From positions 29,914-93,913 of IMG/VR virus record IMGVR_UViG_2639763012_000002: a DNA stretch of 64,000 nucleotides; one strand, given 5' to 3'. The translations under genes were made by a program, and so were the position numbers. Source of the stretch: a virus. Lineage: Duplodnaviria; Caudoviricetes. A model generated the notes under the pieces. The model ran no database searches. It was not told the DNA's origin and saw nothing but the letters and a program-made list of their open reading frames with translations. How positions within the stretch are numbered: the stretch's first letter is position 1; each line of letters begins with the position of its first letter. Shown piece after piece: positions 29,509 to 45,347 of this stretch.

Positions 29509-29542
29509 ACCACTAACCGCCACCCGATACCGGAGGAGCCCG

Positions 29543-30187: not shown

Positions 30188-30280
30188 CCGGCAGCGCCGC
30201 AGGGGCCCCGCCCCTCGCTGTCAAGGCAGGGCGCGACCCCATTCGGCAGCGTCCGTCGCAAGCTGGCTACCGTGGAGACC

Positions 30281-30595
30281 ATGAGCGACACAACCGACCT
30301 ACCGGCAACTTCCCTGCCTCACGCCCTCACCAAAGGCCAGTTGGTGCGGATGCTCAGCGAAGGCGACTTCAGGGACCTACCTGACGACACCCCCCTCATC
30401 CTCAGCAAGGATGCTGAGGGCAACGGGTACTCGCCGGTATCTGGCGCGACCCTCGCGATGTACGTGGCGGAGACCACATGGTCCGGCGAGACCTACCCGC
30501 CCGACAGCGTCATCGACGCGTCCGACGTCTACGGGGACGAGGATCGCGCCCCCGAGGGAGCCGTGCTGGTGATCGAGTTCTCGCCTGTCAACTGA
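30281..30595 (+). CDS. Hypothetical protein
   Basis: RBS; SKDAEGNGYSP motif. Confidence 0.65.
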   Translation: MSDTTDLPATSLPHALTKGQLVRMLSEGDFRDLPDDTPLILSKDAEGNGYSPVSGATLAMYVAETTWSGETYPPDSVIDASDVYGDEDRAPEGAVLVIEFSPVN

Positions 30596-30604
30596 CCGGG
30601 GCGA

Positions 30605-30946
30605 TCAGAACCCGCCTCCGCCCGCGTCGCCACCTGCCGAGCCGCCGCTGTCGCCACCGCCGCCCCACGATGATGAGTCGCTACCGCTCGACGACGACCA
30701 GCCCGAGGACGACGACGGGGGAACGGACCAGAACGAGGCCCCAGGGTCGGCCACAGGGGCAGCCGCCTGCGTCGACGTGTCCGCGGGCAACGGCGCGGGC
30801 GGGGGCGCTTCGCCCGGCAGGTCGGGTGCCTCGGTGGTGATGATGTCGATTGCGGCCCCGGCGGCCCCCTCGAACCCACTGTGGTTGTGCCGGCCGTGAT
30901 CGCGGCGGTTCGTGCTGCGCCTGCTGCGGCGCTTGAAAATACCCAT
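30605..30946 (-). CDS. Hypothetical protein with Gly/Ser-rich tail
   Basis: ORF track; low-complexity C-terminus. Confidence 0.5.
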   Translation of the reverse strand: MGIFKRRSRRSTNRRDHGRHNHSGFEGAAGAAIDIITTEAPDLPGEAPPPAPLPADTSTQAAAPVADPGASFWSVPPSSSSGWSSSSGSDSSSWGGGGDSGGSAGGDAGGGGF

Positions 30947-31014
30947 GCCTTGAGGGTGCCCGACGGTCAGTCAACTGATGGGCGATTTGAGGGAGTTCAG
31001 AGGGTTCACGCGGC

Positions 31015-31302
31015 TCATCCCTGGCGGGCGAACACCAGGAACAACACCACGACCACGACCACCAGCGCGCACGACACCCACCGATCCAGGCCGGACAGTT
31101 CGTCCGGTTCGGGCTCAGGGGCGTCCTGGTACGGCTCGGACGGTTCCGGCAGCTGAACGTCGATCCGCTCGCCGTCCGGGGCCAGCCCGTGGTGGGCCGC
31201 GGCGCGGTGCTCGGTCTGGTCGTCCTGGGCCTGGCGACGGGTACGGCGGGGCTCGGCGGTGACACCGCACAGGGCGCAGCGGTAGGTGTAGGGGCGGGAC
31301 AC
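31015..31302 (-). CDS. Zinc-finger membrane-anchored protein
   Basis: YRCALC...HR...H; C-terminal TM helix. Confidence 0.6.
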   Translation of the reverse strand: MSRPYTYRCALCGVTAEPRRTRRQAQDDQTEHRAAAHHGLAPDGERIDVQLPEPSEPYQDAPEPEPDELSGLDRWVSCALVVVVVVLFLVFARQG

Positions 31303-31399
31303 GACCGGTGAGCGTAGTGGTCAGTCGGCCGTGCCGCAGCGAGATCATGCGGATTCACCGGCCGCCCCACGCCGGCCGACCGTGCGGGCTATCCTCGTC

Positions 31400-31429
31400 C
31401 TGATCATCAGTCCCTGGAGGGATCATGCC
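31400..31429 (+). repeat. Solitary degenerate type I-B-like CRISPR repeat in the cas8 leader
   Basis: CTGATCATCAGTCCCTGGAGGGATCATGCC resembles recalled actinobacterial I-B repeats (GTCCTCATCA.CCCT.GAGGGATCGCAAC); TCCCT-GG-AGGGA stem; TATCCT -10 box at 31390. Confidence 0.5.
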
Positions 31430-31472
31430 TCGGGCTCCAGCCGGTGCCCGTCGTCCCCCTGGGAGCCCTTTC

Positions 31473-32810
31473 GTGACTACTACCACTGTCCTGTCGCTCA
31501 CTCACCACCCCCTCCAGCGTGCTGGCGCATGGGCTGTCACGCACATCGCGGGCCGGTTCCGGCCCGAGGAGGTGTCAGGGGATGACCTGGAGCTGGTCGT
31601 TGGGCTGATCGTCCGAGACGCGACTCGGGCTGCTGTCGCGCCGAAGGACGATGGCCCGGCTGGCTACGACTGGTGGAAGGTACTCTTCGCGCTCTTCCCG
31701 AACTCCAAGCCGACCCACGCCAAGCGCGGCCGGGACCAGGAGGTGATCCGTAGCAAGGTCGCGGCGCTGTTCGCCCCGGACGGCGTCACCGGCCGGTCGT
31801 GGCCGTGTACGTTCTGCGCCCAGATGACGGGCACGGCGTGGGGGAAGTCGAATCTCCCCCTGTTCGACACGTCCAAGGCGTTGAACAACGTGCCGCCGGG
31901 CGTGCCGGGTTGGCCGATCTGCCGTGGATGCCGGGTCGCGATCTGGACCCTGCCCTACGGGGCGTGGGTGACGGCTGGCTCGGCGACGGTTTTCACCTGC
32001 GAGGACGAGGCAGCCGAGCGCCGGTTCGTCGAGCACAGCGTGGCCCGGTCCCGGCGGATCGTCGACGGCGGGTTCGAGGCGCTGGCGGCGGACGGGGTGG
32101 AGGACGGGCCGTTCGCCCTCGCCCTCCAGCAGCTGCGGGATGTCGGGGGCCGGCAGCACGCCGCCGGCGGGCTGGCCAGTTCCACGTTGTGGCGGTTCAA
32201 GAACGACAACGAGGAGCCCTGGCTGCGGGCGTCCTTCACCCGTCGGGCCGTGCCGCGCTTCCTGGCTCTGGTGCAGGGCAACGCGCCGCTGCGGGAGGCA
32301 TGGGCGCTGCTGGAGGAGGCGTTGGTACAGCGGGACCGGCGCGGCAGGGTCGTGGCCAGCGGTGCGGGAGAGGCGGCGCGGCTGGTGTTCGAGGCCGAGG
32401 ACGGAACGAGCCGGTCGTTGCTGTGGGCGTTGCACGAACTACGAGGCTCTGAGCGCCTGACCTCGGCGCAGCGGCACAACATCGCCCGGCTGGCCGGCGA
32501 GTACGGCCGGCATGTACTGGGGATCGATGATGGCAATCTGGCGCCGGCTGCCGAGGTGTTGGCCACGTGGATCTGGCGTGGCGGTCCCGAGGGGCAGCGG
32601 CAGCAGCGGCGGGCGGAGTACCTGGAGGCCGCGCCCAACCCCTACAAGTTGGGGTTGGTGATGATGCGGGCGAACTCCCGGCTGTTCCTGGCCGGTCTGC
32701 CGGTCAGGGCGACGGTGGAGGACTGGCGTCCGCTGCTCCAGTCTGACGCGCGTGCGTGGGCGCGTCGGCTGCTGTTGGGTGCGGCCGTGGATCGGCAACC
32801 CGTCGGCTGA
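31473..32810 (+). CDS. cas8b: Orphan type I-B Cas8b1/Cst1-like (CXXC-CXXC) protein
   Basis: LTHHPLQRAGAW N-terminus, LFPNS motif, WPCTFC...PLF....LNN.P...ICRGC zinc motifs, about 445 aa; recognised by resemblance to actinobacterial Cas8b1/Cst1. Confidence 0.72.
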   Translation: MTTTTVLSLTHHPLQRAGAWAVTHIAGRFRPEEVSGDDLELVVGLIVRDATRAAVAPKDDGPAGYDWWKVLFALFPNSKPTHAKRGRDQEVIRSKVAALFAPDGVTGRSWPCTFCAQMTGTAWGKSNLPLFDTSKALNNVPPGVPGWPICRGCRVAIWTLPYGAWVTAGSATVFTCEDEAAERRFVEHSVARSRRIVDGGFEALAADGVEDGPFALALQQLRDVGGRQHAAGGLASSTLWRFKNDNEEPWLRASFTRRAVPRFLALVQGNAPLREAWALLEEALVQRDRRGRVVASGAGEAARLVFEAEDGTSRSLLWALHELRGSERLTSAQRHNIARLAGEYGRHVLGIDDGNLAPAAEVLATWIWRGGPEGQRQQRRAEYLEAAPNPYKLGLVMMRANSRLFLAGLPVRATVEDWRPLLQSDARAWARRLLLGAAVDRQPVG

Positions 32811-32847
32811 TCTCGTGGGGTGGTCTGCGTGGCTCCCCCAACCCGCT

Positions 32848-32892
32848 TGTAACGTGCCCCCGTTGACTTTCGTAACGGGGGCACGTTACATT
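32848..32892 (+). promoter_or_regulatory. Promoter TTGACT-18-TACATT covered by a 17-bp inverted repeat operator
   Basis: TGTAACGTGCCCCCGTT...AACGGGGGCACGTTACA. Confidence 0.8.
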
Positions 32893-32929
32893 CGTGGTGT
32901 TGGGCCACCCACTCACCATGGAGGACACC

Positions 32930-33556
32930 ATGACCGACGCCCCCCTCGCCACCGTCACCGTCGCCGACTGGGACGCCGCCGAGGTGTACCTCGCCGAGCA
33001 CACCAGCGACGCCACCTACACCCTCACCGAGCTGACCGCCGCCCACGACGCCGACCTCCACGAGATCCGCCTCGACCCCGAAACCCGCACCATCTGGTGG
33101 GCCTACGACAACGGCCCCGTCCGCGGCAAGGGCTGGACCGTCGACCACCTCACCCCGGCGGCCGCCGCCGAACAGGCCGAGCCCATCATCGACACGACCC
33201 AGGACCGCATGGGCGACCCCGAGGGGTACGCCGGGCAGATCCACCGCCTCGACGACGACCAGGCGCTCCTCGACGAGTACACCGAGATCCTGCGCCTGAC
33301 CCTCCCTGCCGACCCGCAGGCCGCCCGCGCCGAGATCCGCACCCGCCGTGCTCTCGCCGACGCCTTGTGGCAGCGCGCCGACGCCGAGCTGGTCCGCAGC
33401 CTCGCCGGCAGCGACCGGGGCGGCAAGGCCGCCGCCGCACGGACCCTGGGCATCACCCGGATGCAGGTCACCCGTCTCATCAGCGACGACGACAGGCGGC
33501 GGGACGCCCTCACCCAGGCCGTGCGGGAGGCGGAAGCCGACTACCCCGACCGCTGA
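32930..33556 (+). CDS. Acidic N-domain plus C-terminal HTH protein (Acr-Aca fusion-like)
   Basis: GGAGG RBS; GGKAAAARTLGITRMQVTRL HTH. Confidence 0.75.
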   Translation: MTDAPLATVTVADWDAAEVYLAEHTSDATYTLTELTAAHDADLHEIRLDPETRTIWWAYDNGPVRGKGWTVDHLTPAAAAEQAEPIIDTTQDRMGDPEGYAGQIHRLDDDQALLDEYTEILRLTLPADPQAARAEIRTRRALADALWQRADAELVRSLAGSDRGGKAAAARTLGITRMQVTRLISDDDRRRDALTQAVREAEADYPDR

Positions 33557-33585
33557 TCGACCCAGCCGCGCCGCGCTATAGTGCT

Positions 33586-33615
33586 AACCTCATCGCCCCT
33601 ACGAGGGGACCCCTG
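33586..33615 (+). repeat. Solitary type I-B-like CRISPR repeat unit
   Basis: AACCTCATCGCCCCTACGAGGGGACCCCTG; 21 contiguous nt match the recalled Streptomyces-type I-B repeat GTCCTCATCGCCCCTACGAGGGGTCGCAAC; TATAGT -10 box at 33577. Confidence 0.65.
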
Positions 33616-33666
33616 CCAGCCAGCCGTGGCCCATGGTGCGCCACGGCCGACCGACGGACGGCCCTC

Positions 33667-35115
33667 GTGCACTACGGCGACCGCGACGGATACGGCCAGT
33701 ACGGCATCCTGGACGACGACGGCGAGCGGGTGCTGTGCCACGAGTGCGGGCGGCGCTACCGCCAGCTCCCGTACCACATCAATCGGGCGCACGGGATGAC
33801 GGCAGTCGAGTACCGGGCAGCCCACGGCCTGAGCGTGACGCAGCCGTTGGCGTCCGACAGCCTGACGGCGACGCAGCGCGCCAACTCCACCAGGGTCTAC
33901 GCCCAACGCCCCGACATCCGGGCCATGCTCGCCGACGCGCTGAGCCGGGGCTGCTCCGCGGCGGCGTCCCGGGCTGCGCAGGCCGCCGCGCCGGACTCCC
34001 TCGCCCGTGCCGCCGAGCGGCATCGCCGCCGGGTCGCATCTGCTCGCCTGGCGGAGCGCGAGCGGGCCGCGAAGCGGCGCAGGCTCGACGAGGCCGCCCG
34101 GGCTCACGGCTATGCCGATATCGACGCGTGGCTGACGGATCACGCGGATCTCACCGCCAGCCAGATCAGGGAGGTGCTGGGGGTGTCGGGGGCAGCGGCG
34201 CGCGAGTTGCGGCGTGGCGTGGTCAGCGCGCAGCGACCAAGCGCGCTGGCCAAGGAGCGCGCCATAGATAGGGTGATCGATGGCGAACAGCTCAGGGCCG
34301 TGGCCCCAGACGCAGGAGTGGGCCCGGATGCACTGCGGGCGTGGGTAGTCGCCTCCCCCCAGGGCGTGGCAGCAGCCACGGCGGCCGGCTACGCGGACGC
34401 GGGCACATGGCTCACTGAACGCTCCCGTGTGAACGCCGATATGCGCCGGGCTGCTGTAGATGTCGTCAGCGGCGGAGAGTCCAAAGCGGCGGTGGCTCGA
34501 CGGCTCGGCGTCAGCGATGTGGCTGTGGGGAAGTGGGTTCGGGCTGCGGGCCACCGTCAACGCCTGGAGCCGGGGATCGACACAACGCCCCAATCCACTC
34601 CTCCAGCGTCGACTCGGGAGGTCGAGCGGCAGCGCGCGTACGACGAGATCCGCCGCCTGTGGCTCACCGGCATGACGCTCCAGCAGATCGGGCTGCAGGT
34701 CGACCGATCCCCGTCTAGCGTGTCCCACGCCGCGCGCCGCCTCGGCCTGCCCCCGCGCCTCACACGGGCATCGGACGAGTCGATCCAGCGGGTGCGCGAG
34801 CTGTGGCCTGACAGGTCGCTCACCACGGACGAGATCGCGCGCCAGGTGGGCGTCTCGCGTGCGTCGGTCTCCTACATCGCCCACCAACTGGGGCTGCCCC
34901 GCCGTCGCGCAAAAGAGCGACTGCGCGGTGAGCAGCTACGGACGGCCCGCGCCCGGCTGCCCGAGCTATGGATGGACGAGTCCCTGAGTCTGCCGGCCAT
35001 CGCTCAGCGGCTCGGGGTCGGCAGCTCACCGACCCTGTCCAGGTGGGCGCGCGAGATGGGCCTCCCGCCAAGGAGTCGGGGGCGGAAACGGCCGCACCCC
35101 AAGAGTGATCGCTGA
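33667..35115 (+). CDS. ROS/MucR-type zinc finger plus multiple tandem HTH protein
   Basis: VLCHECGRRYRQLPYHINRAHGMTAVEYRAAHGL followed by about 5-6 HTH units (e.g. KAAVARRLGVS, LQQIGLQVDRS, DEIARQVGVS, PAIAQRLGVG). Confidence 0.75.
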   Translation: MHYGDRDGYGQYGILDDDGERVLCHECGRRYRQLPYHINRAHGMTAVEYRAAHGLSVTQPLASDSLTATQRANSTRVYAQRPDIRAMLADALSRGCSAAASRAAQAAAPDSLARAAERHRRRVASARLAERERAAKRRRLDEAARAHGYADIDAWLTDHADLTASQIREVLGVSGAAARELRRGVVSAQRPSALAKERAIDRVIDGEQLRAVAPDAGVGPDALRAWVVASPQGVAAATAAGYADAGTWLTERSRVNADMRRAAVDVVSGGESKAAVARRLGVSDVAVGKWVRAAGHRQRLEPGIDTTPQSTPPASTREVERQRAYDEIRRLWLTGMTLQQIGLQVDRSPSSVSHAARRLGLPPRLTRASDESIQRVRELWPDRSLTTDEIARQVGVSRASVSYIAHQLGLPRRRAKERLRGEQLRTARARLPELWMDESLSLPAIAQRLGVGSSPTLSRWAREMGLPPRSRGRKRPHPKSDR

Positions 35116-35702
35116 CAGACGACGTCGCACTCGTCGACCTCCTGGTCCACTGGATCGAGCAGCCGGAGGACCAGCGGGAGCGGGTGACGCGGATGTCGGA
35201 GCTCGTGGGCGCCCTCCCCACCCGCAGCGCCTCGGAGCGGCTCCTGCGGCGCGTGCGCGACGAGGCGCCCGCTGACGCCGTGGCAGCCTGTGCGGAGGAG
35301 ACGCGCGAGCGGGCGGCCCGCAGGGCGCGGGGGGAGAGGAATCCTCCCGTGCCCGGTCGGGGCCGTCGGGCCGCGGTCGCCCGTGTCATCAGGCAGACCG
35401 ACCGCAACATCCGGAACCTCTACGAGGCGCAGCTGGCCGCCCGGGCGGAGGCGCGCGAGCCGCGCCGCCTCCGTCCGCCGGATGACGCCTACGCGATGCT
35501 GCCCGACGCCCAGGCCGCGGTGGACGAGGTCAGGCGAGCCCGGGACGCCTACTACGCGGCCATCGCCGACGCCCTGCCGCCCCACACCGCGGGGACCCGG
35601 CCCAGCGGGGCCGACGCTGCCCGCTTCGCCGAGGTGCGGTCGGTCACCGGCCTTGATCCCGCGCACCTACGACGCATCCAGCGCACCGTCCACGCCCGTT
35701 GA
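35112..35702 (+). CDS. Hypothetical helical protein (start uncertain: CTG 35112 or GTG 35184)
   Basis: Frame open from the CTGA overlap with the upstream stop; possible C-terminal HTH (VRSVTGLDPAHLRRI). Confidence 0.55.
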   Translation: MTDDVALVDLLVHWIEQPEDQRERVTRMSELVGALPTRSASERLLRRVRDEAPADAVAACAEETRERAARRARGERNPPVPGRGRRAAVARVIRQTDRNIRNLYEAQLAARAEAREPRRLRPPDDAYAMLPDAQAAVDEVRRARDAYYAAIADALPPHTAGTRPSGADAARFAEVRSVTGLDPAHLRRIQRTVHAR

Positions 35703-35777
35703 ATCACACAGAGTGGGTAGCACGGCGGCAGCCCGGCCGTTATCGTGTGGGGCACGCCCGCTGAGCGGGTTGAGACC

Positions 35778-35908
35778 CTTTTCCCCGCATGAGCGGGGGT
35801 GAGCCCACGTACAGCTACTCGCATACGTGTAGCCCCTCGTGGTCCCCGCGCCAGCGGGGGTAACCCAGCTGCGGTCTCTTGTGTCCCCGCGCAAGCGGGG
35901 GTGACCCT
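35778..35908 (+). CRISPR. Degenerate type I-E mini-array, 3 repeats (29 bp), spacers 32 and 12 bp
   Basis: R1 35778-35806 CTTTTCCCCGCATGAGCGGGGGTGAGCCC; R2 35839-35867 GTGGTCCCCGCGCCAGCGGGGGTAACCCA; R3 35880-35908 TGTGTCCCCGCGCAAGCGGGGGTGACCCT. Confidence 0.88.
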
Positions 35909-35922
35909 ATTCTCGCCTCCCT

Positions 35923-36543
35923 GTGATTGCCGTGTATCGAGTCCTGTACGACCTGCCGTCCCTGGGGTACCTGCGTCCGTCCGAGGTGTGGCGGGGCATC
36001 ACCTCCCGCGTGCCGACGGAGCACACGGAAGCGTCTGAGGGCCCGCGACTGCTCTGGCGTCTGGAATCCCCCACAGAACTCCTGGTCCAGTACCCTGTGC
36101 GCCCGGACCCCACATGGCTGCTACCGGGCGCGCGCAGCCGTCCCAAGGCGTTCGCCATGCAGCAGCTCATGGATTCGCTGGCCGCCGGCCAGCGGTGGGA
36201 CTTCGTGTTGGCCGCCAACACGGTCCGCCGATCAACCGGACGAGCACGTGCCCGGCAGGCGCAGGCCCAACGGGTGTCGGCACGAGAGTGGCTCACAGGT
36301 GAGACGGATGTGGATGCTGACAGCGGCACGTCCCGCGCGTACCAGTCCGGATTCCGGGTGCTGGCAATCGCCGAGACCACTCAGCGCCGCGGCGGCCCGC
36401 GCCAGGCGCACTTGGTGCGCATCACAGGTCGCCTGGAGGTTGAGGACACCGAGGCGCTGCAAGCCGCCCTTGAGGAAGGCATTGGCCGAGGGAAGGCCCA
36501 GGGGGCCGGGATGCTATCCCTCTCCCCGCTACCGCGGGGTTGA
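35923..36543 (+). CDS. cas6e: Orphan type I-E Cas6e (Cse3/CasE)-like protein
   Basis: LLWRLE...LLVQ...PDPTWL, GQRWDFVLAANTVR, GRLEVED..AL..AL.EGIGRGKAQGAGML G-rich loop. Confidence 0.9.
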   Translation: MIAVYRVLYDLPSLGYLRPSEVWRGITSRVPTEHTEASEGPRLLWRLESPTELLVQYPVRPDPTWLLPGARSRPKAFAMQQLMDSLAAGQRWDFVLAANTVRRSTGRARARQAQAQRVSAREWLTGETDVDADSGTSRAYQSGFRVLAIAETTQRRGGPRQAHLVRITGRLEVEDTEALQAALEEGIGRGKAQGAGMLSLSPLPRG

Positions 36544-36658
36544 TCCAAGTTCCGGGTTGGCCACCTGTGGTGGCTTGCACTGAATCCCCGCGTGCGCGGG
36601 GATGCCCCGATGAGGATGCCGTGGACACCACGGCCCCTGCATACGCGGGGAGAGATCA
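36519..36658 (+). CRISPR. Second degenerate type I-E mini-array, 3 repeats, spacers 33 and 20 bp; first repeat overlaps cas6e 3' end
   Basis: R4 36519-36547 CCTCTCCCCGCTACCGCGGGGTTGATCCA; R5 36581-36609 TGAATCCCCGCGTGCGCGGGGATGCCCCG; R6 36630-36658 ACGGCCCCTGCATACGCGGGGAGAGATCA. Confidence 0.75.
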
Positions 36659-36687
36659 ACGAGACCCCGGCCACGCCGGGGTCTCGT
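36659..36687 (+). terminator. Hairpin closing the array/cas6e unit
   Basis: ACGAGACCCCGGC-CAC-GCCGGGGTCTCGT. Confidence 0.65.
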
Positions 36688-36722
36688 CGTGTCCCGCTCG
36701 GTCGGCTGGGCACAATGCCGAG

Positions 36723-37439
36723 GTGACGATCAACACCATCCCCGGCCGCACCCTGTCCGCCTCCGTGCTCGCCACGGTCCTCACCCTGACCGCCGTGGCA
36801 TGCACGGAAGCTGACGACGCGGCAGCCGACACCAGTACCAGCGGCAGCCCCAGCGCGCCGGCCGACGACGCCAACCCGCCAGCCGACGACGGTTCCGACG
36901 CGGGCGGCACCGAGGCCGGGGACGCGCTCGCCCTACTCGCCGAGCTGGAGGTCGCTGCCGAGGACCGCACCGGCTACGACCGTGACCTGTTCGACCATTG
37001 GTCCAGCCAGGGCAACAACTGCAACACCCGCGAGGCCGTCCTCGCCCGCGACGGCCAGGACGTCGAGACCGACGACCAGTGCCGCGCCACCGCCGGCACC
37101 TGGGAGTCCGTCTACGACGGAGAGACCTGGACGGACGCCGCCGACCTCGACATCGACCACGTCGTGCCGCTCGCCGAGGCATGGGACTCCGGCGCCGACA
37201 CCTGGACCGACGAAGAGCGGGAGGCGTTCGCCAACGACCTCGACGGGCCGCAGCTGCTGGCCGTCACCAGCAGCGTCAACCGCGCCAAGGGCGACAAAGA
37301 CCCTGCCGAATGGATGCCGCCGCTGGAGTCGTACCACTGCACCTACGCCGCGGACTGGATCCAGGTGAAGCACGACTACGGCCTGGCCGTCGACCAGGAC
37401 GAGCACGACGCCCTGACCGGCATCCTGGAGAGCTGCTGA
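36723..37439 (+). CDS. Secreted lipoprotein HNH endonuclease (DUF1524-like)
   Basis: Lipobox LTAVAC; GYDRDLF.HW, CNTRE.VL.RDG, DIDHVVPLAEAW.SGA, NRAKGDKDPAEW. Confidence 0.9.
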   Translation: MTINTIPGRTLSASVLATVLTLTAVACTEADDAAADTSTSGSPSAPADDANPPADDGSDAGGTEAGDALALLAELEVAAEDRTGYDRDLFDHWSSQGNNCNTREAVLARDGQDVETDDQCRATAGTWESVYDGETWTDAADLDIDHVVPLAEAWDSGADTWTDEEREAFANDLDGPQLLAVTSSVNRAKGDKDPAEWMPPLESYHCTYAADWIQVKHDYGLAVDQDEHDALTGILESC

Positions 37440-37588
37440 ACCCGATAGCCTGACGGGACGGCAGGGCATGCACGCCAAGCCGCCGCCACCCGGGCGTCCA
37501 CAGTGGTGGCCGGCGGCCGAGGCCCACGGGGCCCATGCGAGAGCGCCCCTACACCAGCTCGGTGTGGGGGCGCTCTGCTGAGCGGGGG

Positions 37589-38236
37589 TCAGACATCCAG
37601 GCTGGCGATCCTCACCGCATCCACCAGGTGCGGGGTGGCGGCCAGAGCGAGCTCGGCGCCAGCGGACGGATCGGTTGGAGCCCGGCCCGCAGCCTCCTGG
37701 AGAGCGATACAGGCCGAGGCAGTGTGCTGCACGATCGCGCCAGCCAGCAGCTCGGCCACCGGAACCTCGAACTCGGCAGCAACAGTTCGGACACGTCCGG
37801 GGGTGACCTCCTCGCCCAGGAGCGCATCGATCGCCCCAGCCGGCGCCAGAGCTGCCCCCTGCTGGGCCGTCATCTCCGGCACCGCCGGCCGCGCCACCGG
37901 CTCGGCAGCGGTGTCCGGCTCCATGTCGAGCAGCTGCTCGACCTCAGCGAGTACCGCCCGTTCCCGGGCCGCACGCTGGCTGTCGGCCTCCTCGCTGCGC
38001 GAGATGGCAGCCCATTGGTCGCGGTCCATCTGTGTCGCCCGGTCGAGCCGCGTGGCCGCAGTGATCCCCAACATGTAGATCTCCCGGCCGGAGACGACGA
38101 CCGGCTCACCTCCCGCGCCCGCAACCGTGTTGTAGACCTCGGCTGCGGCATGGCCGATCTCGGCAATGAGTTGGGCGCAGGTGGCGATGAGGTGGGTGTT
38201 CCGGCGGCGGGCGGCCGGCGGGGTGTGCGCGGTCAC
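37589..38236 (-). CDS. Hypothetical protein
   Basis: GTG after GGAG; coding-like. Confidence 0.6.
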   Translation of the reverse strand: MTAHTPPAARRRNTHLIATCAQLIAEIGHAAAEVYNTVAGAGGEPVVVSGREIYMLGITAATRLDRATQMDRDQWAAISRSEEADSQRAARERAVLAEVEQLLDMEPDTAAEPVARPAVPEMTAQQGAALAPAGAIDALLGEEVTPGRVRTVAAEFEVPVAELLAGAIVQHTASACIALQEAAGRAPTDPSAGAELALAATPHLVDAVRIASLDV

Positions 38237-38318
38237 GTCGATCTCCAGGGAGCGGTTGGCGGGTTGATGGTGATGGTCGCTGGTCGGGCCCGGGTGTTGG
38301 GCCCGACCAGGGGCAGGA

Positions 38319-38753
38319 TCACCCGTTCGGGTGTGTGAGGCGGTCGATGAGGCGGGCGCCGGCGGGGGTAATCGCGCTGCTCCAGCGGATACCGGGCCAG
38401 CGCCCCACGATGAGTGGCCATGCCCGGTCGACCAAGCGCTGCCCCCGGTAGGCGGGGGCGACGTATACCCAGCTGACATGCGGTGTCTCGGGCTCAACCG
38501 CGACCGCTCCGGCGAGGGATAGCCCACCTCTGGCCGATGCGGCCGGGAACGGGGTGGGCAGGGCCACGATGGTCTCGGTGCCGGGGCACCGGGCCAGGTA
38601 GGCATGGTCCTGTCCCAGGCCGGTCTCGTCGCAGAACGCCCGACTCAGCTGCTCTACCGCCTCACGGGCAGCCAGGGGCGCGGTGGGGCCGACGATCGGG
38701 TAGGACGCCCAGGGCTGGAGCTGGGCGCCCTCCTCGGGGGTCGGCGGGGTCAT
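38319..38753 (-). CDS. GNAT acetyltransferase-like protein
   Basis: WVYVAPAYRGQRL acetyl-CoA motif A. Confidence 0.7.
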   Translation of the reverse strand: MTPPTPEEGAQLQPWASYPIVGPTAPLAAREAVEQLSRAFCDETGLGQDHAYLARCPGTETIVALPTPFPAASARGGLSLAGAVAVEPETPHVSWVYVAPAYRGQRLVDRAWPLIVGRWPGIRWSSAITPAGARLIDRLTHPNG

Positions 38754-39589
38754 CAGCGGTTCCTCTCCTGATACGACGGCAGTGCGGCGCGTGCGCGGTC
38801 GGCGAGTTGACGGGCGGCGGGCGGGGCGGGGGTGGTGGTGCCGGCGCGCAGCTCAGCGAGGAGCCCAGCGGTGGGGATGATGCGGACGCCGCGCACGGTG
38901 ATACCGCCACCGGCGACCGGAGCGCCGTGCACCACGATGACTGGGGTGACGGTGACGCCGCCGAGGGCGCGGGACACCTCCCGAGCCTCGTACTCGACAG
39001 AGTCCAGCGCGCGCGTCCAGTCCTCGGAGCCCCGGTAGAGGCGGCCCCGGCGGGCGTGCACGGTGCCGGTGCGTGCCGACCAGCGCTTGCTGTCCGGCAT
39101 CCACACCCGGGCGCACGGCGAGATCACCAGGTGGTCGACGTTGGCCCGCCCCCGGGGCAGCGCCCGGTCGTGCAGCACCGTCCAGCCGGCGGGCAGCTGG
39201 CGGAGGATGCCAGCGGTGGCCCGCTCCCCAGCGGCGCCAGCCTCCCAGCGTGCCGCCTGGGCGCGCTGCCGGTCCCCGGCCGCATCCGGCACGCCGAGCG
39301 CGGCGAGGGCCTGGCGGCCGAGGCCGCCGCGCGCGGAACGACGCAGGTGTGCGGCGCGGGCGGCGGCCGAACTCCCGGCGTCGCCGGTGGGGTTCGGGCG
39401 GTGGCGCGGGCCGGGGACGCGGCCGGCCGGGCGCCGGCCACCGGCGGCGGTGCGCCGGCGAACGGGGGAAGCGCCCCGCCGGCCAGGCCGGCGAGGTGGT
39501 CCACCACGGCGGCGGGGCCGCCGGCCGGCCGGGGCGCGGCGGTACAGCCACACCCCGACCGCCACGAGAGCGGCGAGCAGCAGATCCAC
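38753..39589 (-). CDS. NERD nuclease-domain protein
   Basis: GAAGERAT...WTVLHD...ANVDHLVI....V...DSK.W. Confidence 0.88.
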   Translation of the reverse strand: MDLLLAALVAVGVWLYRRAPAGRRPRRRGGPPRRPGRRGASPVRRRTAAGGRRPAGRVPGPRHRPNPTGDAGSSAAARAAHLRRSARGGLGRQALAALGVPDAAGDRQRAQAARWEAGAAGERATAGILRQLPAGWTVLHDRALPRGRANVDHLVISPCARVWMPDSKRWSARTGTVHARRGRLYRGSEDWTRALDSVEYEAREVSRALGGVTVTPVIVVHGAPVAGGGITVRGVRIIPTAGLLAELRAGTTTPAPPAARQLADRARAALPSYQERNR

Positions 39590-39591
39590 GG

Positions 39592-40056
39592 CTACTCCTC
39601 GTCAACGGGGTCGACAACCAGGGTGAACGTGCCGCAGTGATCGGCGGTATCGGTGGCGTGCTCGTCGTGCGCGGCGTAGCACCCTGGGCGGGTGCAGTAC
39701 GCCGAGGGCCCCTCGTCCGGGGCCTCACAGTCGCTCTCCTCGCAGACCGGGCACACCTGCTCGCCCGCCAGCGCGAGAGACACCCTGATCACAGCGTCCT
39801 CATCGCAGCAGGAGCAGCCCACCACCAAAGTCCCGGCCACCCGGGCGCACCTCATCAGTGCGTCCATCAGGGGCTGCCCGGGCTCCACCCGCTCGACATG
39901 GCCGGCAACGGGCAGGCTGGCGTTGGTGGCGGCGATGGCCACGGACTGGCCGTGCGGGTCATGCAGGATCAGGTGGGCGCCGCTGACCGCCGCGCGGGTC
40001 AGCGCGGTCAGCAGGGCGTCAGGATCGTCAGCCGGGGTGCGTAGGGTGATGTGCAT
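39592..40056 (-). CDS. Hypothetical Cys-rich protein
   Basis: RBS; in leftward operon. Confidence 0.55.
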   Translation of the reverse strand: MHITLRTPADDPDALLTALTRAAVSGAHLILHDPHGQSVAIAATNASLPVAGHVERVEPGQPLMDALMRCARVAGTLVVGCSCCDEDAVIRVSLALAGEQVCPVCEESDCEAPDEGPSAYCTRPGCYAAHDEHATDTADHCGTFTLVVDPVDEE

Positions 40057-40121
40057 GGTGCTCTCTCTGGTGGGGGCCGGCCAGCCCCGGCTCGCAGGGC
40101 CGGCCAGCCAGCGGGGCGTGG

Positions 40122-40580
40122 TCAGGGGCGGGTGTTGGAGGTAAGCGCGGCGACGCGGGCGACGATGCCCTCGGCCGAGTCGGCGCCGACCATGTCGCGC
40201 ACATGCGCCAGCAGGCCCGCGTACCGGGTCACCAGCGCCTCCAGCTCTGCGATGCGCTCGGCCTCGGCCCGCACCCGGCGCAGGTCGGAGCAGACGCGCT
40301 CTCCGATACCGGCGAGCTGCTCGGCGAGCCGCGCCGCCTCGCCCAGATCAGCGACGAGCGGGGCCAGTTCGCGTCCGCCGGCCTGCGGGGTCGGGACGGC
40401 GCCAGCGCCACGCGCCTGTTCGTCCTCCCGCTCCCACCGGGTCTGGTAGCGGGCCAGCGCCCGCCGGAACCCGCGCTCCTCCTCCGTACGCCCGTTGTTC
40501 CGGGCCTGCTCAATCTCCTCCAGCAGGGCGACGCGCACGGCCTCACGGCTGGCAGGCGGGGTGAGTTGGATGGTCTGCAT
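40122..40580 (-). CDS. Hypothetical coiled-coil protein
   Basis: GAGGAG RBS. Confidence 0.6.
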   Translation of the reverse strand: MQTIQLTPPASREAVRVALLEEIEQARNNGRTEEERGFRRALARYQTRWEREDEQARGAGAVPTPQAGGRELAPLVADLGEAARLAEQLAGIGERVCSDLRRVRAEAERIAELEALVTRYAGLLAHVRDMVGADSAEGIVARVAALTSNTRP

Positions 40581-40688
40581 ATGACGTTTCTCCTCAGGGT
40601 GTTGGTGGCCGGCCCCGCCCGGGCGCCGGCCGGTGTGTGGTCAGGGGCGGATGTCGGCGGGTCGGGAAGTCCCGGCCGACCGGCAGGG

Positions 40689-41279
40689 TCAGTGGCTGTA
40701 GGGGCGGCGGTACGCCTCGGGGATGTCCTCCGACGGCGCCTTGGCGAGGGTCGATGCCTGGGCGGCGCTCAGGCCACGCGGGCGGCCGTCGTGCCCGGAC
40801 CAGATACCCAGGGCGGCGCGGGCCGTCGCGGTCCACAGCTCCTCCCGGCTCCCGTACGCCTCCGGGTACACATCGCCCTCCACGTAGGTGACCAGGCCGT
40901 GCAGGTCGCGGTGCGACAGGTGGATGTGAGCGACGACGACGTAGGGCCACAGTCCGAGGTCCCAGCCCTCGGAGCCCCACACGCCAGGCGTTTCCCAGCC
41001 CTCGCCCCTGATGCGGGTCATCCAGTCCCAGCCGTCCTCGCCGGACTCCAGGTCGGGGGTGATGTCGGGCAGTTGGCTGGTGTGCGGCGCGGCCAGCGAG
41101 GTGACCGGCACGGTCTCGTGGGGCAGCAGGCAGACGGGCAGGCCGCCGACCCACAACGCGACGAACGGGCTGTCCTCGTCGGGCTGGCTGGTGCCGGAGA
41201 CCATGCCGGTCTCGCCGTGCAGGGTGACGGTGTCGCCAACGGCGATCTGGTCGGCGCGGAGGGTGCGGGTGGCGTTCAT
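40689..41279 (-). CDS. Hypothetical protein
   Basis: AAGGAG RBS; WG.EGWDLG.WPY...YVEGD. Confidence 0.65.
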   Translation of the reverse strand: MNATRTLRADQIAVGDTVTLHGETGMVSGTSQPDEDSPFVALWVGGLPVCLLPHETVPVTSLAAPHTSQLPDITPDLESGEDGWDWMTRIRGEGWETPGVWGSEGWDLGLWPYVVVAHIHLSHRDLHGLVTYVEGDVYPEAYGSREELWTATARAALGIWSGHDGRPRGLSAAQASTLAKAPSEDIPEAYRRPYSH

Positions 41280-41304
41280 CGGGCGCGGCTCCTTCGAGGG
41301 CTGG

Positions 41305-41667
41305 TCAGTTGGTGCAGCCGCCGGCGGGGCCGGCGCAGGAGTAGAGCGGGTACTGGCAGGGGGCGGGGTGGCGGACGGTGGCCTGCATCGCGGCGTGCAT
41401 CTCCACGGGGTCGGTGATCAGCAGGGCCGGCGCGGGGCGCTCGGCGAGCGAGATGACGGCCAGTGGCCAGTCCGGATGCTGGACCTCGATCGGGTCCGGC
41501 CAGGTCTCGCCGGTGGCGGTGAGTGCGTAGATGCGCTGCCAGGAGGCGGGGCGCGGCCCGCTGGTGGGGGCGGTCTGGACGGAGGTGACGGTGGCTGGGG
41601 CGCCGCCGTCGGTCCGGATGACGTCGCCAGCACGGACGTGGCGGGCCTTGATCCAGGTGTAGGTCAT
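41305..41667 (-). CDS. Hypothetical protein
   Basis: GGAGG RBS before MTYTWIK. Confidence 0.55.
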   Translation of the reverse strand: MTYTWIKARHVRAGDVIRTDGGAPATVTSVQTAPTSGPRPASWQRIYALTATGETWPDPIEVQHPDWPLAVISLAERPAPALLITDPVEMHAAMQATVRHPAPCQYPLYSCAGPAGGCTN

Positions 41668-41988
41668 CTCGGTGCCTCCGTAGACGTGAGAGCGGCGGGT
41701 CAGCCGTAGTAGGCGGGGTCGTAGGGGCCGGTCGGCCCGTCGGTGGCGCAGCTCCCGCAGAGCAGGTCGCCGGTGTCGGGGTCGAGGTCCCAGTCGTGGT
41801 TGTCGCGGGCGGTGTCCGGGCCGCCGGGGGCCGGGGCCCAGCAGCCGGAGCACAGGGCCTCGTCGTCCTCGGCGGGGGCCGCGTCGGCGGTGCTGATGGT
41901 GGTGAGGAGGCCAGCGAGGGCGGGGATGGCGGTGGTGATCAGCACGGCGGGCCTCCTACGGGGCGGGTCTGCGGACGGTGGTGGTCGG

Positions 41989-42423
41989 TCAGGCGGCGAG
42001 GGCGAGCGCGGTGTAGTCGTCGAGCGCGTAGTCGTCGTCGTCGCGGGACAGTTCGCGGGCAATGACCTCGCCGGGGGTGGCCGGCCGCTGCTCGGGGTCG
42101 GCACCGTCCACGGCCACGGTGATGGCCGGGAGCGGGGTGTCGGTGATGTAGCTCATGTGGCGGTGGACGGTGTAGGCGGTGATCCGGTCCAGGCGCCAGG
42201 AGCGCTGCTCGCCGGTCGCGCGGTCGATGATGTGGCCGGCGCCGGTGGTGTGGATGTCGTAGATCTCGATCGTGCGCACCGTCTCAACCAAGCGGCCGGT
42301 GGGGCGGCCGGTCTCATCCCACTCCTGCTTGAGGGCGGTGATGGTGACGGGCTGGTGGCGGTCGGCGGCGCGGAGGAGGTCCGCGAGGGTGCGGGTGGTG
42401 GTCTGGGTGGCGGTGCGCCTCAT
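41989..42423 (-). CDS. Stand-alone WYL domain protein
   Basis: PVTIT...TVRTIEIY...DRATGEQRSWRLDRI. Confidence 0.8.
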   Translation of the reverse strand: MRRTATQTTTRTLADLLRAADRHQPVTITALKQEWDETGRPTGRLVETVRTIEIYDIHTTGAGHIIDRATGEQRSWRLDRITAYTVHRHMSYITDTPLPAITVAVDGADPEQRPATPGEVIARELSRDDDDYALDDYTALALAA

Positions 42424-42460
42424 CGGTCCCCCTGAGGTGTTGTCCCTGTGTGGTGACTCC

Positions 42461-42509
42461 ACCATATAGCCCAACACGTTGGGCTGTCAAGCCCAACGTG
42501 TTGGGCTAT
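42461..42509 (-). promoter_or_regulatory. Promoter TTGACA-18-TATGGT within a 20-bp perfect inverted repeat
   Basis: ATAGCCCAACACGTTGGGCT-GTCA-AGCCCAACGTGTTGGGCTAT (42466-42509); extra GCCCAAC half sites near 42540 and 42568. Confidence 0.85.
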
Positions 42510-42594
42510 CCTGGGTGCCGTGACCCACTCCCCCCAAGGGCCCAACATGCCCACCACGAAACCGATAGCCCAACGCTGTGGGACCATGCCCCGC

Positions 42595-44558: not shown

Positions 44559-44657
44559 GGCCTACTCCTCTCTCGTAGTGGTGCAGGGGATAGGTCAGGC
44601 GCCGCGGCTGCGGCGCCCGGGCCGCTGTGTGGGGCGGCCCTCCGGCGTGGGCGGGGG

Positions 44658-44960: not shown

Positions 44961-44992
44961 GGTGATTGGTCCTCCGGCCGATCAATTAACTA

Positions 44993-45028: not shown

Positions 45029-45069
45029 CAAGCTGGGGTGTGGTCGAACCGTGTGGGAACATGACCGGC

Positions 45070-45339: not shown

Positions 45340-45347
45340 ACGCCGCA

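What the first reader, a model, noticed from the sequence alone, without database searches (positions are those of the whole stretch)
35778..36687. cas6e gene sits inside its own CRISPR array like a giant spacer, with a repeat encoding its last codons
Seen: R3 ends 14 bp before the cas6e start. R4 (36519-36547) encodes the final residues (..LSPLPRG) and contains the TGA stop. R5, R6 and a terminator hairpin follow. All six repeats keep the CCCC/T-GC-N4-GC-GGGG stem while flanks and loops drift. Known: Cas6e cuts at the 3' base of this stem. Inference: processing at R4 would cut just before the stop codon and yield a non-stop mRNA, and processing at R3 would trim the leader. This gives a feedback loop or a sensor of host Cas6 activity coupled to small RNA production.
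Basis: partly seen in the sequence, partly recalled or inferred. Interest (0 to 1): 0.85.

Follow-up and report, generated by a model that had tools for sequence, protein, structure and literature searches.

The report
Solo histidine-less Cas6e between hairpin repeats
A lone, divergent copy of the CRISPR RNA-processing gene cas6e, lacking its catalytic histidine, sits between six CRISPR-like hairpin repeats in a Streptomyces-type genome with no matching CRISPR machinery; the same gene-plus-repeats unit recurs in a few other Streptomyces, so it looks like a repurposed RNA-binding module rather than junk.

Summary
Three type I-E-like repeats (R1-R3) precede a 203-206-codon cas6e-like ORF. A fourth repeat (R4) encodes its last codons and its TGA. 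R5, R6 and a strong hairpin follow.

- The protein has the Cas6e fold and G-rich loop, but the catalytic His is replaced by Trp or Gln in 9 of 9 clade members. It is His in 27 of 28 canonical Streptomycetaceae Cas6e.
- The genome holds no other Cas6e and no detectable I-E Cascade gene.
- The R4/stop overlap is absent from both homologous loci whose DNA I could read.

What is conserved is a mini-array of 2-5 degenerate I-E hairpins directly upstream of the gene (3 of 3 loci). Canonical cas6e genes never show this (0 of 28). The gene is under purifying selection (dN/dS 0.30-0.46, dS above 1). All three host genomes lack Cas7e.

Best reading: a rare exapted remnant of type I-E, in which a hairpin-binding, probably non-cleaving Cas6e-like protein is transcribed together with its own binding sites. 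The stop-codon overlap is a lineage-specific fusion of the variable C-terminal tail to a repeat. The role in trans is open: regulator, or dominant-negative/decoy anti-CRISPR. No RNA data could be found.

The parts
35750..35777 (+). Possible degenerate extra hairpin (CCCGC-TGA-GCGGG followed by TTGAGACC) abutting R1, in the leader region after the stop of the upstream gene (35700-35702)
   Evidence: Direct reading. Not tested further.
35778..35806 (+). Repeat R1 (type I-E-like; stem CCCCGC, loop ATGA, stem GCGGGG)
35807..35838 (+). Spacer S1, 32 nt, partly self-complementary. No match elsewhere in the genome or in the phage collection.
35839..35867 (+). Repeat R2 (loop GCCA)
35868..35879 (+). 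Spacer S2, only 12 nt, too short for a type I-E guide
35880..35908 (+). Repeat R3 (loop GCAA). It ends 23 nt before the homology-supported start codon.
35932..36543 (+). cas6e-like gene, 203 codons plus TGA. An alternative in-frame GTG lies at 35923. The public collection's own gene call is a 177-aa form.
   Evidence: Pfam PF08798 at 89 bits. TIGR01907 at 41.3 bits, below its cut-off of 45.2. AlphaFold2 model pLDDT 87.6, with T. thermophilus Cse3-RNA complexes as best PDB matches. Trp at the catalytic His column. GC3 is 0.79 against 0.90-0.93 in the neighbouring genes.
36519..36547 (+). Repeat R4 (loop TACC). It encodes the last codons (..L S P L P R G) and holds the TGA at 36541-36543.
36548..36580 (+). 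Spacer S4, 33 nt, containing its own perfect hairpin (GCCACC-TGT-GGTGGC)
   Evidence: No phage or genome match.
36581..36609 (+). Repeat R5 (loop GTGC, 3' flank ATGCCCCG, the closest to canonical I-E)
36610..36628 (+). Spacer S5, 19 nt, part of a hairpin (CCGTGG-ACA-CCACGG) that runs into the 5' flank of R6
36629..36658 (+). Repeat R6, degenerate (CCCTGC-ATAC-GCGGGG, one G-U pair). Its 3' side can also pair with the 5' side of R4.
36660..36686 (+). GC-rich stem-loop of 12 pairs without a T-run, a putative end of the transcription unit
   Evidence: Not called by the terminator scan. Comparable hairpins follow the gene in L036.

Best explanation
The locus is a self-contained unit of about 0.95 kb: [R1-R3] - cas6e-like gene - [R4-R6] - terminal hairpin. 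It belongs to a rare, monophyletic lineage of 'solo' Cas6e-like genes in Streptomyces, descended from type I-E CRISPR-Cas.

The protein keeps the Cas6e double-RRM fold and the G-rich loop. It has lost the catalytic His, and also the Tyr three residues before it. It therefore most likely binds the CCCCGC-N4-GCGGGG hairpins tightly without cutting them. The hairpins are kept by selection on the same transcript as the gene, so the protein and its RNA form a ribonucleoprotein. That complex probably feeds back on the stability or translation of its own mRNA, and could also bind any other I-E repeat RNA in the cell.

The overlap of R4 with the stop codon is a feature of this sub-lineage. The family's variable C-terminal tail has been replaced by read-through into a repeat.

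Shown here: the anatomy; Cas6e family and fold; loss of His across the clade; conservation of upstream repeats; purifying selection; absence of I-E effector genes.
Inferred: RNA binding without cleavage; co-transcription; feedback; any role in trans.
For: 1. Family and fold. Pfam PF08798 at 89 bits. AlphaFold2 pLDDT 87.6 and pTM 0.84, with the top Foldseek hits being T. thermophilus Cse3-RNA complexes at E about 1e-12 and TM 0.63-0.71. The G-rich loop GIGRGKAQGAG fits the consensus GhGxxxxxGhG quoted in PMC5965381 (passages read).

2. Catalytic residue. In the HMMER alignment to 1wj9, the chain's PYEMH aligns with PSEVW of the query. That column is H in 27 of 28 canonical Streptomycetaceae Cas6e and W or Q in every clade row. 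With two more members it is W in 7, Q in 2 and H in 0 of 9, and no His or Lys is invariant in the clade. His20 of E. coli Cas6e is described as essential (PMC5965381), and the H20A allele as non-functional for processing (PMC4499155, passages).

3. Conserved module. Exact hairpin motifs within 400 nt upstream of the gene: 3 in the window, 4 in L036 (plus one degenerate), 2 in L037. Canonical cas6e loci: 0 of 28. Nothing else is shared within +-6 kb of L036 or L037.

4. Long maintenance. dN/dS is 0.30-0.46 with dS 1.2-1.7 among the three genes. The clade is monophyletic at 100/99 support. Of 13 repeats, 12 can still form the 6-bp stem, while 12 of 13 loops and all 13 3' flanks differ.

5. Solo state. 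One Cas6e in the genome. tblastn with the 8 proteins of a canonical Streptomyces I-E operon hits only this gene. A Cas7e protein search gave no hit in G000, G134 or G401, while the positive control G038 gave E 3.7e-169.

6. Spacers are not guide-like. Lengths are 32, 12, 33 and 19 nt, and none matches the genome or phage records.
Against: - No expression or RNA-end data exist for this locus. Binding and co-transcription are untested.
- Some Cas6 enzymes cut without a conserved His (S. solfataricus Cas6; PMC5965381 passage), so loss of His does not prove loss of activity.
- The window copy has a GTG start and no visible Shine-Dalgarno sequence, and its GC3 (0.79) is lower than that of its neighbours. 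It could be poorly expressed. L036 and L037 have ATG starts with GGAG-like motifs.
- The last upstream hairpin sits 31-80 nt from the start codon, so simple occlusion of the ribosome site is not obvious.
- Only 3 of the 9 clade members have readable DNA.
- The repeats were recognised partly by their stems, which inflates the apparent conservation of the stems.
Confidence: 0.45

Rival explanations
1. Anti-CRISPR or CRISPR-silencing module. The His-less Cas6e-like protein acts as a dominant-negative binder of type I-E pre-crRNA hairpins. The repeat RNAs act as Racr-like decoys for I-E Cas proteins. The module would be carried on a mobile or conflict island that also holds a solo Cas8b/Cst1 paralogue aimed at the resident type I-B system.
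For: - The mechanism follows from Cas6e biology. The H20A allele abolishes processing (PMC4499155).
- Solitary repeat RNAs on mobile elements inhibit I-F, I-E and V-A systems (PMC10651486, passages).
- Viral Cas5, Cas8b and Cas3 homologues act as anti-CRISPRs (bioRxiv 10.1101/2023.06.24.545427, passages).
- The window is rich in mobile and conflict genes: TnpB, GT4-conflict, T5orf172, DUF2637+HTH_17, DUF5131, an HTH_36 gene 77% identical in DNA to a Kitasatospora plasmid gene, NERD, and GmrSD_C.
- A Cst1/Cas8b-family gene at 31425-32810 is 57% identical to the Cst1 of the resident I-B operon.
- I-E is common around these genomes. 149 of 401 sampled Streptomycetaceae genomes have a Cas6e match, and 31 Streptomyces plasmids carry cas6e.
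Against: - All three carrier genomes lack I-E Cascade, so there is nothing resident to inhibit.
- No relative was found in the viral, phage or plasmid collections at clade level.
- L037 lies among ordinary chromosomal genes: a Dak kinase, an MmyB-like regulator and a type III PKS.
- The solo cst1 is not linked to the module in L036 or L037.
- No integrase or transfer gene was identified in the window.
Confidence: 0.2
2. The protein is an active endoribonuclease that cuts its own transcript at the repeats. It would trim the leader at R3 and remove the stop codon at R4, giving a non-stop mRNA as negative feedback, while releasing small crRNA-like RNAs.
For: - The geometry fits. A cut after 36539 would lie 1 nt before the TGA.
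- Cas6 enzymes without a catalytic His exist (PMC5965381).
- The tail encoded by R4 is the same in the closest relative P0002 except for the residue encoded by the loop. This is compatible with conservation of the hairpin.
Against: - Both the His and the Tyr three residues upstream are missing. The His position varies (W or Q) within the clade, which is not what a replacement catalytic residue would show.
- 0 of 2 other loci with DNA has a repeat at the stop or downstream.
- Small RNAs with 12- or 19-nt spacers, and no Cascade to use them, have no evident function.
Confidence: 0.15
3. A non-functional relic. Two deletions in a former array-cas-array type I-E locus left cas6e between two array stumps, and everything is decaying.
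For: - The genome holds other I-E debris: an orphan array on C15, and solitary leader-plus-repeat remnants on C22 and C23.
- Repeat loops, flanks and spacer lengths have drifted.
- The window copy has low GC3 and no Shine-Dalgarno sequence.
Against: - The ORF is intact and full-length.
- The same array-gene arrangement persists in loci whose genes differ at dS 1.2-1.7 with dN/dS 0.30-0.46. Stems are intact in 12 of 13 repeats.
- The clade is a deep separate lineage, only 23-33% identical to canonical Cas6e. It is not a recently orphaned copy.
Confidence: 0.1
4. The gene arrived between R3 and R4 by insertion or recombination at CRISPR repeats, with the repeats acting as attachment or recombination sites. 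On this reading it is literally a 'giant spacer'.
For: - Two solitary I-E leader-repeat remnants in this genome lie next to xis- or integrase-like ORFs.
- The introduction of the Racr paper mentions the suggestion that solitary repeats may enable viral integration.
Against: - L036 and L037 have repeats on the upstream side only.
- The 610-bp insert carries no recombinase.
- R3 and R4 differ in loop and flanks.
Confidence: 0.05

Closest known systems
Canonical Cas6e (CasE/Cse3) of type I-E CRISPR-Cas
   Same: Pfam family, double-RRM fold and C-terminal G-rich loop. The associated hairpin has the same stem, CCCCGC-N4-GCGGGG, as canonical Streptomyces I-E arrays.
   Different: No catalytic His or Tyr. 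Only 23-33% identity to canonical Streptomycetaceae Cas6e, and a separate clade. Not in a cas operon, and no Cascade in the genome. Repeats directly upstream of the gene, and here also at the stop codon, versus 0 of 28 canonical loci. Scores below the NCBIfam equivalog cut-off.
Regulatory mini-arrays and cr-like RNAs (CreR, CreA) inside CRISPR-cas loci
   Same: A short, degenerate array next to a cas gene. Such mini-arrays upstream of cas6 are described for type I-B (bioRxiv 10.1101/2023.03.03.530964, passages; CreR preprint seen only as a search listing and abstract start).
   Different: Those RNAs work through Cascade, which represses a promoter via a partially matching spacer. Here no Cascade exists, spacer lengths are irregular, and I found no partial match of S1 or S2 near the locus.
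RNA anti-CRISPRs (Racr, solitary repeat units) on phages and plasmids
   Same: Repeat-mimicking hairpins outside a functional CRISPR-Cas locus, in a mobile or conflict-type neighbourhood. I-E examples exist (PMC10651486).
   Different: Racrs are described as not associated with cas genes. They act on the host's Cas6 and Cas7, and this host has neither for I-E. Here several repeats are tied to a Cas6e-like gene.
Cas-protein homologues used as anti-CRISPRs (AcrIB3, AcrIB4, AcrVIA2), and Cas6 acting as a competitor (T. thermophilus Cas6-2)
   Same: Stand-alone cas homologues that interfere with CRISPR complexes (bioRxiv 10.1101/2023.06.24.545427; PMC12102369, abstract).
   Different: No Cas6 homologue is reported among the viral examples in the passages I read. 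This clade was not found in the viral or phage collections.
Engineered dCas6 plus Cas6-binding-site systems
   Same: A catalytically dead Cas6 bound to its cognate stem-loop, used as an RNA-tethering pair (PMC12475213, abstract start only).
   Different: That pair is man-made. Here the pairing appears to have arisen naturally.

Membership tests
Cas6e / Cse3 / CasE (PF08798; TIGR01907) | Significant match to the family profile above the curated cut-off | tested here: met
   Pfam PF08798: E 6.9e-25, 89 bits against a cut-off of 25, residues 26-202. The stricter NCBIfam equivalog TIGR01907 is not reached: 41.3 bits against 45.2.
Cas6e / Cse3 / CasE (PF08798; TIGR01907) | Double ferredoxin/RRM fold like the solved Cse3 structure | tested here: met
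   AlphaFold2 pLDDT 87.6. Foldseek top hits are 2y9h, 2y8y, 3qrq and 1wj9, at E 1e-11 to 1e-12 and TM 0.63-0.72.
Cas6e / Cse3 / CasE (PF08798; TIGR01907) | C-terminal G-rich loop GhGxxxxxGhG with Lys or Arg | tested here: met
   GIGRGKAQGAG in the window protein. The glycines are invariant in the clade and in the canonical rows. Consensus quoted from PMC5965381.
Cas6e / Cse3 / CasE (PF08798; TIGR01907) | Invariant catalytic histidine (E. coli H20; T. thermophilus H26 by recall) | tested here: not met
   The position is Trp in the window protein. Across the clade it is W in 7, Q in 2 and H in 0 of 9. It is H in 27 of 28 canonical Streptomycetaceae Cas6e.
Cas6e / Cse3 / CasE (PF08798; TIGR01907) | Encoded in a cse1-cse2-cas7-cas5-cas6e operon and part of Cascade | tested here: not met
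   No Cse1, Cse2, Cas7e, Cas5e, Cas3, Cas1e or Cas2e hit in the genome. The neighbouring genes are unrelated.
Cas6e / Cse3 / CasE (PF08798; TIGR01907) | Cleaves repeat RNA at the 3' base of the stem | not testable with these tools
   Needs an enzyme assay or RNA-end mapping. No RNA run holds the locus.
Type I-E CRISPR array | Direct repeats of about 29 nt with the I-E stem-loop | tested here: met
   Six copies. Five have the exact stem CCCCGC-N4-GCGGGG, identical to canonical Streptomyces arrays.
Type I-E CRISPR array | Near-identical repeats and uniform spacers of about 32-33 nt | tested here: not met
   All loops and flanks differ. Spacers are 32, 12, 610, 33 and 19 nt.
Type I-E CRISPR array | Adaptation genes (cas1e-cas2e) in the genome to maintain it | tested here: not met
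   No Cas1e or Cas2e hit. The only Cas1 belongs to the type I-B operon on C23.
Racr / solitary repeat unit anti-CRISPR | Repeat mimic carried by a phage, plasmid or other mobile element | tested here: inconclusive
   The window island has mobile and conflict genes but no integrase or transfer genes were identified. L037 has a chromosomal context. There are no viral or phage relatives.
Racr / solitary repeat unit anti-CRISPR | Inhibits a cognate CRISPR-Cas system | not testable with these tools
   Needs an interference assay. The carrier genomes lack I-E.
CreR/CreA-type regulatory mini-array | The spacer partly matches a nearby promoter and acts through Cascade | tested here: not met
   No local partial match of S1 or S2. 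No Cascade.

The most novel reading that the evidence does not exclude
A natural two-part inhibitor built from CRISPR parts. A histidine-less Cas6e would clamp type I-E repeat hairpins without cutting them. It would be co-expressed with decoy repeat RNAs and autoregulated by those same hairpins. In this genome it sits in a conflict island beside a solo Cas8b/Cst1 paralogue of the resident type I-B system. That would make the island an 'anti-CRISPR island made of cas genes', protecting resident or transferring DNA from chromosomal or plasmid-borne I-E systems of Streptomyces.
Probability: 0.2. Interest if true: 0.85.

Novelty: new variant of a known kind. Interest (0 to 1): 0.62.

Why it matters
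Cas6 proteins are known as crRNA-processing enzymes inside CRISPR-Cas loci. A conserved, stand-alone Cas6e lineage that has lost its catalytic His, yet stays tied to its cognate hairpins in genomes without Cascade, would be a natural exaptation of a Cas6-hairpin pair. That is the same pair synthetic biologists engineer as dCas6 plus a binding site.

It would give a direct handle on what such a pair does in cells: mRNA autoregulation, silencing of orphan arrays, or inhibition of incoming I-E systems. It would also be a new candidate class to test as an anti-CRISPR.

The case is small (9 protein clusters, 3 loci with DNA) and fully testable with simple biochemistry. In three full-text searches I found no paper whose title or listed abstract describes a natural solo His-less Cas6e with its own mini-array. 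Supplements were closed and subscription journals are not covered.

Tried and rejected
- RNA evidence: the look-up of sequencing runs listed no RNA holder. The only row was a 0.04-share metagenome run, which I did not lay.
- Rfam: no match in the window at gathering thresholds, and none in 35600-36800 at E up to 1. No tRNA in the window.
- Promoter and terminator scan of 35300-36900: nothing found. The consensus used is E. coli-like.
- Spacer targets: S1, S2, S4 and S5 match only themselves in the genome. S1 and S4 have no phage match. I did not search the spacers against plasmids.
- More loci:
  - Viral contigs and metagenome-contig scans found no relative.
  - The phage collection gave no hit. 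The plasmid collection gave only canonical Cas6e at 27-33% identity.
  - The genome-contig scan gave 2 loci.
  - Genome searches found clade members in 2 of 401 (family sample), 2 of 401 (own genus), 1 of 63 and 0 of 167 genomes. The first two counts include the own genome.
Whether R4-type overlaps or upstream repeats occur there is unknown.
- Synteny: the 20-kb stretch 26001-46000 has no collinear counterpart in 20 relatives. Only multi-copy HNH and GGDEF pieces matched. Island borders could not be set.
- Rejected: R4 as a chance by-product of coding a conserved peptide. The tail after ..GMLSLS is variable in the family, and 0 of 28 canonical genes show a hairpin at the stop.
- Rejected: this Cas6e serving the resident C23 system. 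That system is type I-B with its own weak Cas6 match and a different 29-nt repeat core, which has no match in the window.
- Tool caveat: the genome search control for PF08798, PF09344 and PF09481 rang only in Thermus, not in E. coli. I therefore backed the negative results with tblastn and with a protein search that had a positive control.
- Counts: before the tree and the fold I dropped 9 of the 28 canonical rows to keep the alignment small (A2 used 19 of 28). P0129 was cut to its first 225 residues for the tree.
Full report
**Observation**

The region was read directly and scanned for repeats. Six 29-30-nt units lie at 35778-35806, 35839-35867, 35880-35908, 36519-36547, 36581-36609 and 36629-36658, all on the + strand.
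- Five carry the exact stem-loop CCCCGC-N4-GCGGGG.
- The sixth reads CCCTGC-ATAC-GCGGGG, so its one change keeps a G-U pair.
- A T precedes the stem in R1-R5, and the 3' flanks (GTGAGCCC, GTAACCCA, GTGACCCT, TTGATCCA, ATGCCCCG) resemble the canonical I-E 3' flank ATGGTCCC seen in a Streptomyces plasmid array. The repeats therefore point the same way as the gene.
- The exact motif occurs only 17 times in the 7.74-Mb genome, and 5 of those sites are here. Chance is excluded.

The ORF 35923-36543 ends inside R4. Its last codons (L S P L P R G) and its TGA (36541-36543) are repeat sequence. A 12-bp GC-rich hairpin follows R6 at 36660-36686. By comparison with homologues that begin MYRVLY, the real start is probably the GTG at 35932.

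**The protein**

It is a Cas6e by profile: PF08798 at 89 bits. It falls below the NCBIfam equivalog cut-off, 41.3 against 45.2 bits.

It is also a Cas6e by fold. The AlphaFold2 model has pLDDT 87.6, and its best PDB matches are T. thermophilus Cse3-RNA complexes. It carries the G-rich loop GIGRGKAQGAG.

The active site is not canonical.
- In the alignment to chain 1wj9, the segment PYEMH pairs with PSEVW.
- In a 37-row alignment, that His column is H in 27 of 28 canonical Streptomycetaceae Cas6e. The exception, L029, has an aberrant N-terminus. The column is W or Q in every relative of the window protein.
- With all nine clusters of the clade it is W in 7, Q in 2 and H in 0. No His or Lys is invariant anywhere in the clade.
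- The review passages I read call the E. coli His20 essential (PMC5965381), and the H20A allele is non-functional for processing (PMC4499155).
- That T. thermophilus His26 and Tyr23 are the catalytic pair is my recollection, not a call.
- The same review notes that crenarchaeal Cas6 enzymes cut without a conserved His. Loss of activity is therefore likely, not proven.

**A rare, separate lineage**

The 5.8-billion-protein collection holds only nine clusters at E up to 1e-20. All are from Streptomyces where a source names the organism. A tree of these nine plus 19 canonical Streptomycetaceae Cas6e shows:
- the His-less group as one branch with 100/99 support;
- its distance from the two canonical groups is about the same as their distance from each other;
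- the window protein as sister to P0002, with 95/88 support.

Identity to the canonical proteins is 23-33%.

**What is conserved around the gene**

DNA was available for two other members. L036 is from Streptomyces sp. NPDC007346 (54% identity). L037, the same place as L007, is from Streptomyces sp. CA2R106 (47% identity).
- L036 has five repeats upstream of the gene, four exact and one with a decayed 5' arm. L037 has two, one of them with a 5-nt loop. All are in the gene's orientation, and the last one lies about 50-75 nt before the ATG.
- A script count of exact motifs within 400 nt upstream of the start gives 3 for the window, 4 for L036 and 2 for L037. Canonical cas6e loci give 0 of 28.
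- In the canonical loci the first motif lies 1.3-1.5 kb downstream, beyond cas1-cas2, in 18 loci. It lies at +254 in one locus and is not seen in the flank held for 9 loci. None of the 28 has a motif over the stop codon.
- Nothing else is shared among the three loci within the flanks compared.
- Each gene is followed by a strong hairpin.
- Neither L036 nor L037 has a repeat at the stop or downstream. The R4-R6 part is specific to the window's sub-lineage.
- P0002, the closest relative, ends LSPLLRG against LSPLPRG in the window. The only difference is the residue encoded by the R4 loop, which is what a conserved hairpin would allow. This is inference, because its DNA could not be fetched.
- In the other members the tail after GMLSLS is longer and variable. 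Read-through into a repeat has therefore replaced a part of the protein that tolerates change.

**Selection**

Pairwise Nei-Gojobori estimates for the three genes give dN/dS of 0.30-0.46 with dS of 1.2-1.7. At that depth an unconstrained 16-nt hairpin would be erased. Yet 12 of 13 repeats can still form the six-pair stem, while 12 of 13 loops and all 13 3' flanks differ. The repeats were found partly through their stems, so this contrast is inflated. The repeated co-location itself is not affected by that bias.

**Solo state**

- This is the only Cas6e in the genome, which is 100% complete by marker genes.
- Pfam searches for Cas7e and Cse1 were empty. The tool's E. coli control did not ring for these families, so I checked in two further ways.
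- tblastn with all eight proteins of a canonical Streptomyces plasmid I-E operon hit only this gene.
- A Cas7e protein search was empty in G000, G134 and G401, while the positive control G038 scored E 3.7e-169.
- In G134 and G401 the divergent gene is likewise the only Cas6e.
- The genome does have a complete-looking type I-B system on another contig, with different repeats.
- It also holds I-E debris: a small orphan array on C15 and two solitary leader-plus-repeat remnants on C22 and C23.

**Mechanism**

The spacers (32, 12, 33 and 19 nt) are irregular and match nothing. There is no Cascade to use guides. The hairpins, not the spacers, are what matters.

The simplest reading is a protein that recognises the I-E hairpin as Cas6e does but stays bound without cutting, encoded on the RNA that carries its binding sites.
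- This gives feedback on its own mRNA. How it works is open, because the nearest upstream hairpin is 31-80 nt from the start codon.
- In the window, a bound R4 would sit on the last five codons.
- The 3' part is strongly structured (z = -6.3). S4 and S5 form hairpins of their own, and the 5' side of R4 can pair with the 3' side of R6.
- In trans the protein could bind transcripts of the orphan I-E repeats, or of I-E arrays brought in by plasmids. 31 Streptomyces plasmids in the collection carry cas6e.
- A dominant-negative or decoy anti-CRISPR role is attractive in this window. The island is rich in mobile and conflict genes, and it also carries a solo Cst1/Cas8b paralogue 57% identical to that of the resident I-B operon.
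- That role is weakened by the absence of I-E in all three carriers, by the ordinary chromosomal setting of L037, and by the lack of viral, phage or plasmid relatives.

**Comparison with known systems**

The protein is a Cas6e by sequence and fold. It fails two defining features of the enzyme family, the catalytic His and the operon context.

The repeats are I-E-type but do not behave as a CRISPR array.

The unit resembles regulatory mini-arrays (10.1101/2023.03.03.530964), Racrs (PMC10651486), Cas-homologue anti-CRISPRs (10.1101/2023.06.24.545427) and competing Cas6 proteins (PMC12102369, abstract). It differs from each of them in these respects:
- it has no Cascade;
- a cas gene is tied to the repeats;
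- it is not on a recognised virus or plasmid.

I therefore rate it a new variant of a known kind.

**Verdict**

The conserved feature is 'mini-array plus His-less cas6e'. The stop-codon overlap is a local elaboration. Expression and RNA ends remain untested because no RNA run holds the locus.

Noticed in passing
window 31425-32810 (+): A solo Cst1/Cas8b-family gene (461 aa; several sources name its relatives 'CRISPR-associated protein Cst1'). It is 57% identical over 413 residues to the Cst1 of the resident type I-B operon on contig C23. No other I-B cas gene or I-B repeat lies beside it. This is a second orphan cas homologue 3 kb from the cas6e-like gene.
   Followed up: partly
G000 C23:390.5-400.3 kb and 450.5-452.1 kb (L003, L004, L042): A resident type I-B-like CRISPR-Cas: a weak Cas6 match, then Cst1, Cst2/Cas7, Cas5, Cas3, a 274-aa ORF, Cas1 and Cas2. 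Its arrays of at least 5, 15 and 26 repeats share the 29-nt repeat core GTTGCGAACCCTCCGGGGTTGATGAGGAC.
   Followed up: partly
G000 C15:38.7-39.1 kb; C22:890521; C23:359293: Type I-E debris in a genome without I-E cas genes. C15 has an orphan array of 4-5 repeats in reverse orientation. C22 and C23 each have a solitary leader-plus-repeat remnant lying next to an xis-like or integrase-like ORF. Mobile elements may have integrated at, or deleted, former arrays.
   Followed up: partly
window 35184-35702 (+): The gene just upstream of R1 (172 aa, no Pfam or NCBIfam match) shares a 49-residue motif (73% identity) with the N-terminal part of an excisionase-like ORF at C22:890.9 kb. That ORF lies about 0.4 kb from the solitary I-E leader-repeat there.
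   Followed up: partly
window 36500-36700: The 3' part folds far better than shuffles (-121.8 kcal/mol, z = -6.3). 'Spacers' S4 and S5 each contain a perfect 6-7-bp hairpin with a 3-nt loop. CUCUCCCCGC of R4 can pair with GCGGGGAGAG of R6, an alternative to the local repeat hairpins.
   Followed up: no
window 35909-35934; L036 5985-6003; L037 5985-6003: The window gene has a GTG start and no Shine-Dalgarno-like motif in the 23 nt after R3. Both homologues have ATG starts preceded by GGAG or GAGGAG. The public gene call for the window protein is a shorter 177-aa form.
   Followed up: no
window 36720-37439 (+): The downstream gene encodes a GmrSD_C/HNH-type nuclease domain behind a signal-peptide or lipoprotein-like N-terminus. 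It is a multi-copy family, with paralogues on C15 at 68% and 56% identity, and is the only part of the 20-kb stretch that matches relatives.
   Followed up: no
window 899-30000 and 38753-46885: The neighbourhood looks like a variable mobile or conflict island. It holds TnpB (899-2107), a GT4-conflict glycosyltransferase, a nucleoside 2-deoxyribosyltransferase-like gene, T5orf172, DUF2637+HTH_17, DUF5131 (phage Gp37/Gp68), GGDEF, an HTH_36 gene 77% identical in DNA to a Kitasatospora plasmid gene, a ROS/MucR multi-HTH protein, NERD, and GntR+PNKP. No integrase or tRNA was found in the window.
   Followed up: partly
The genome search controls: The built-in control for Pfam Cas6e, Cas7e and Cse1 families rang in Thermus thermophilus but not in Escherichia coli, although Cas1 did ring there. 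Empty answers with these three families are therefore weak on their own.
   Followed up: yes
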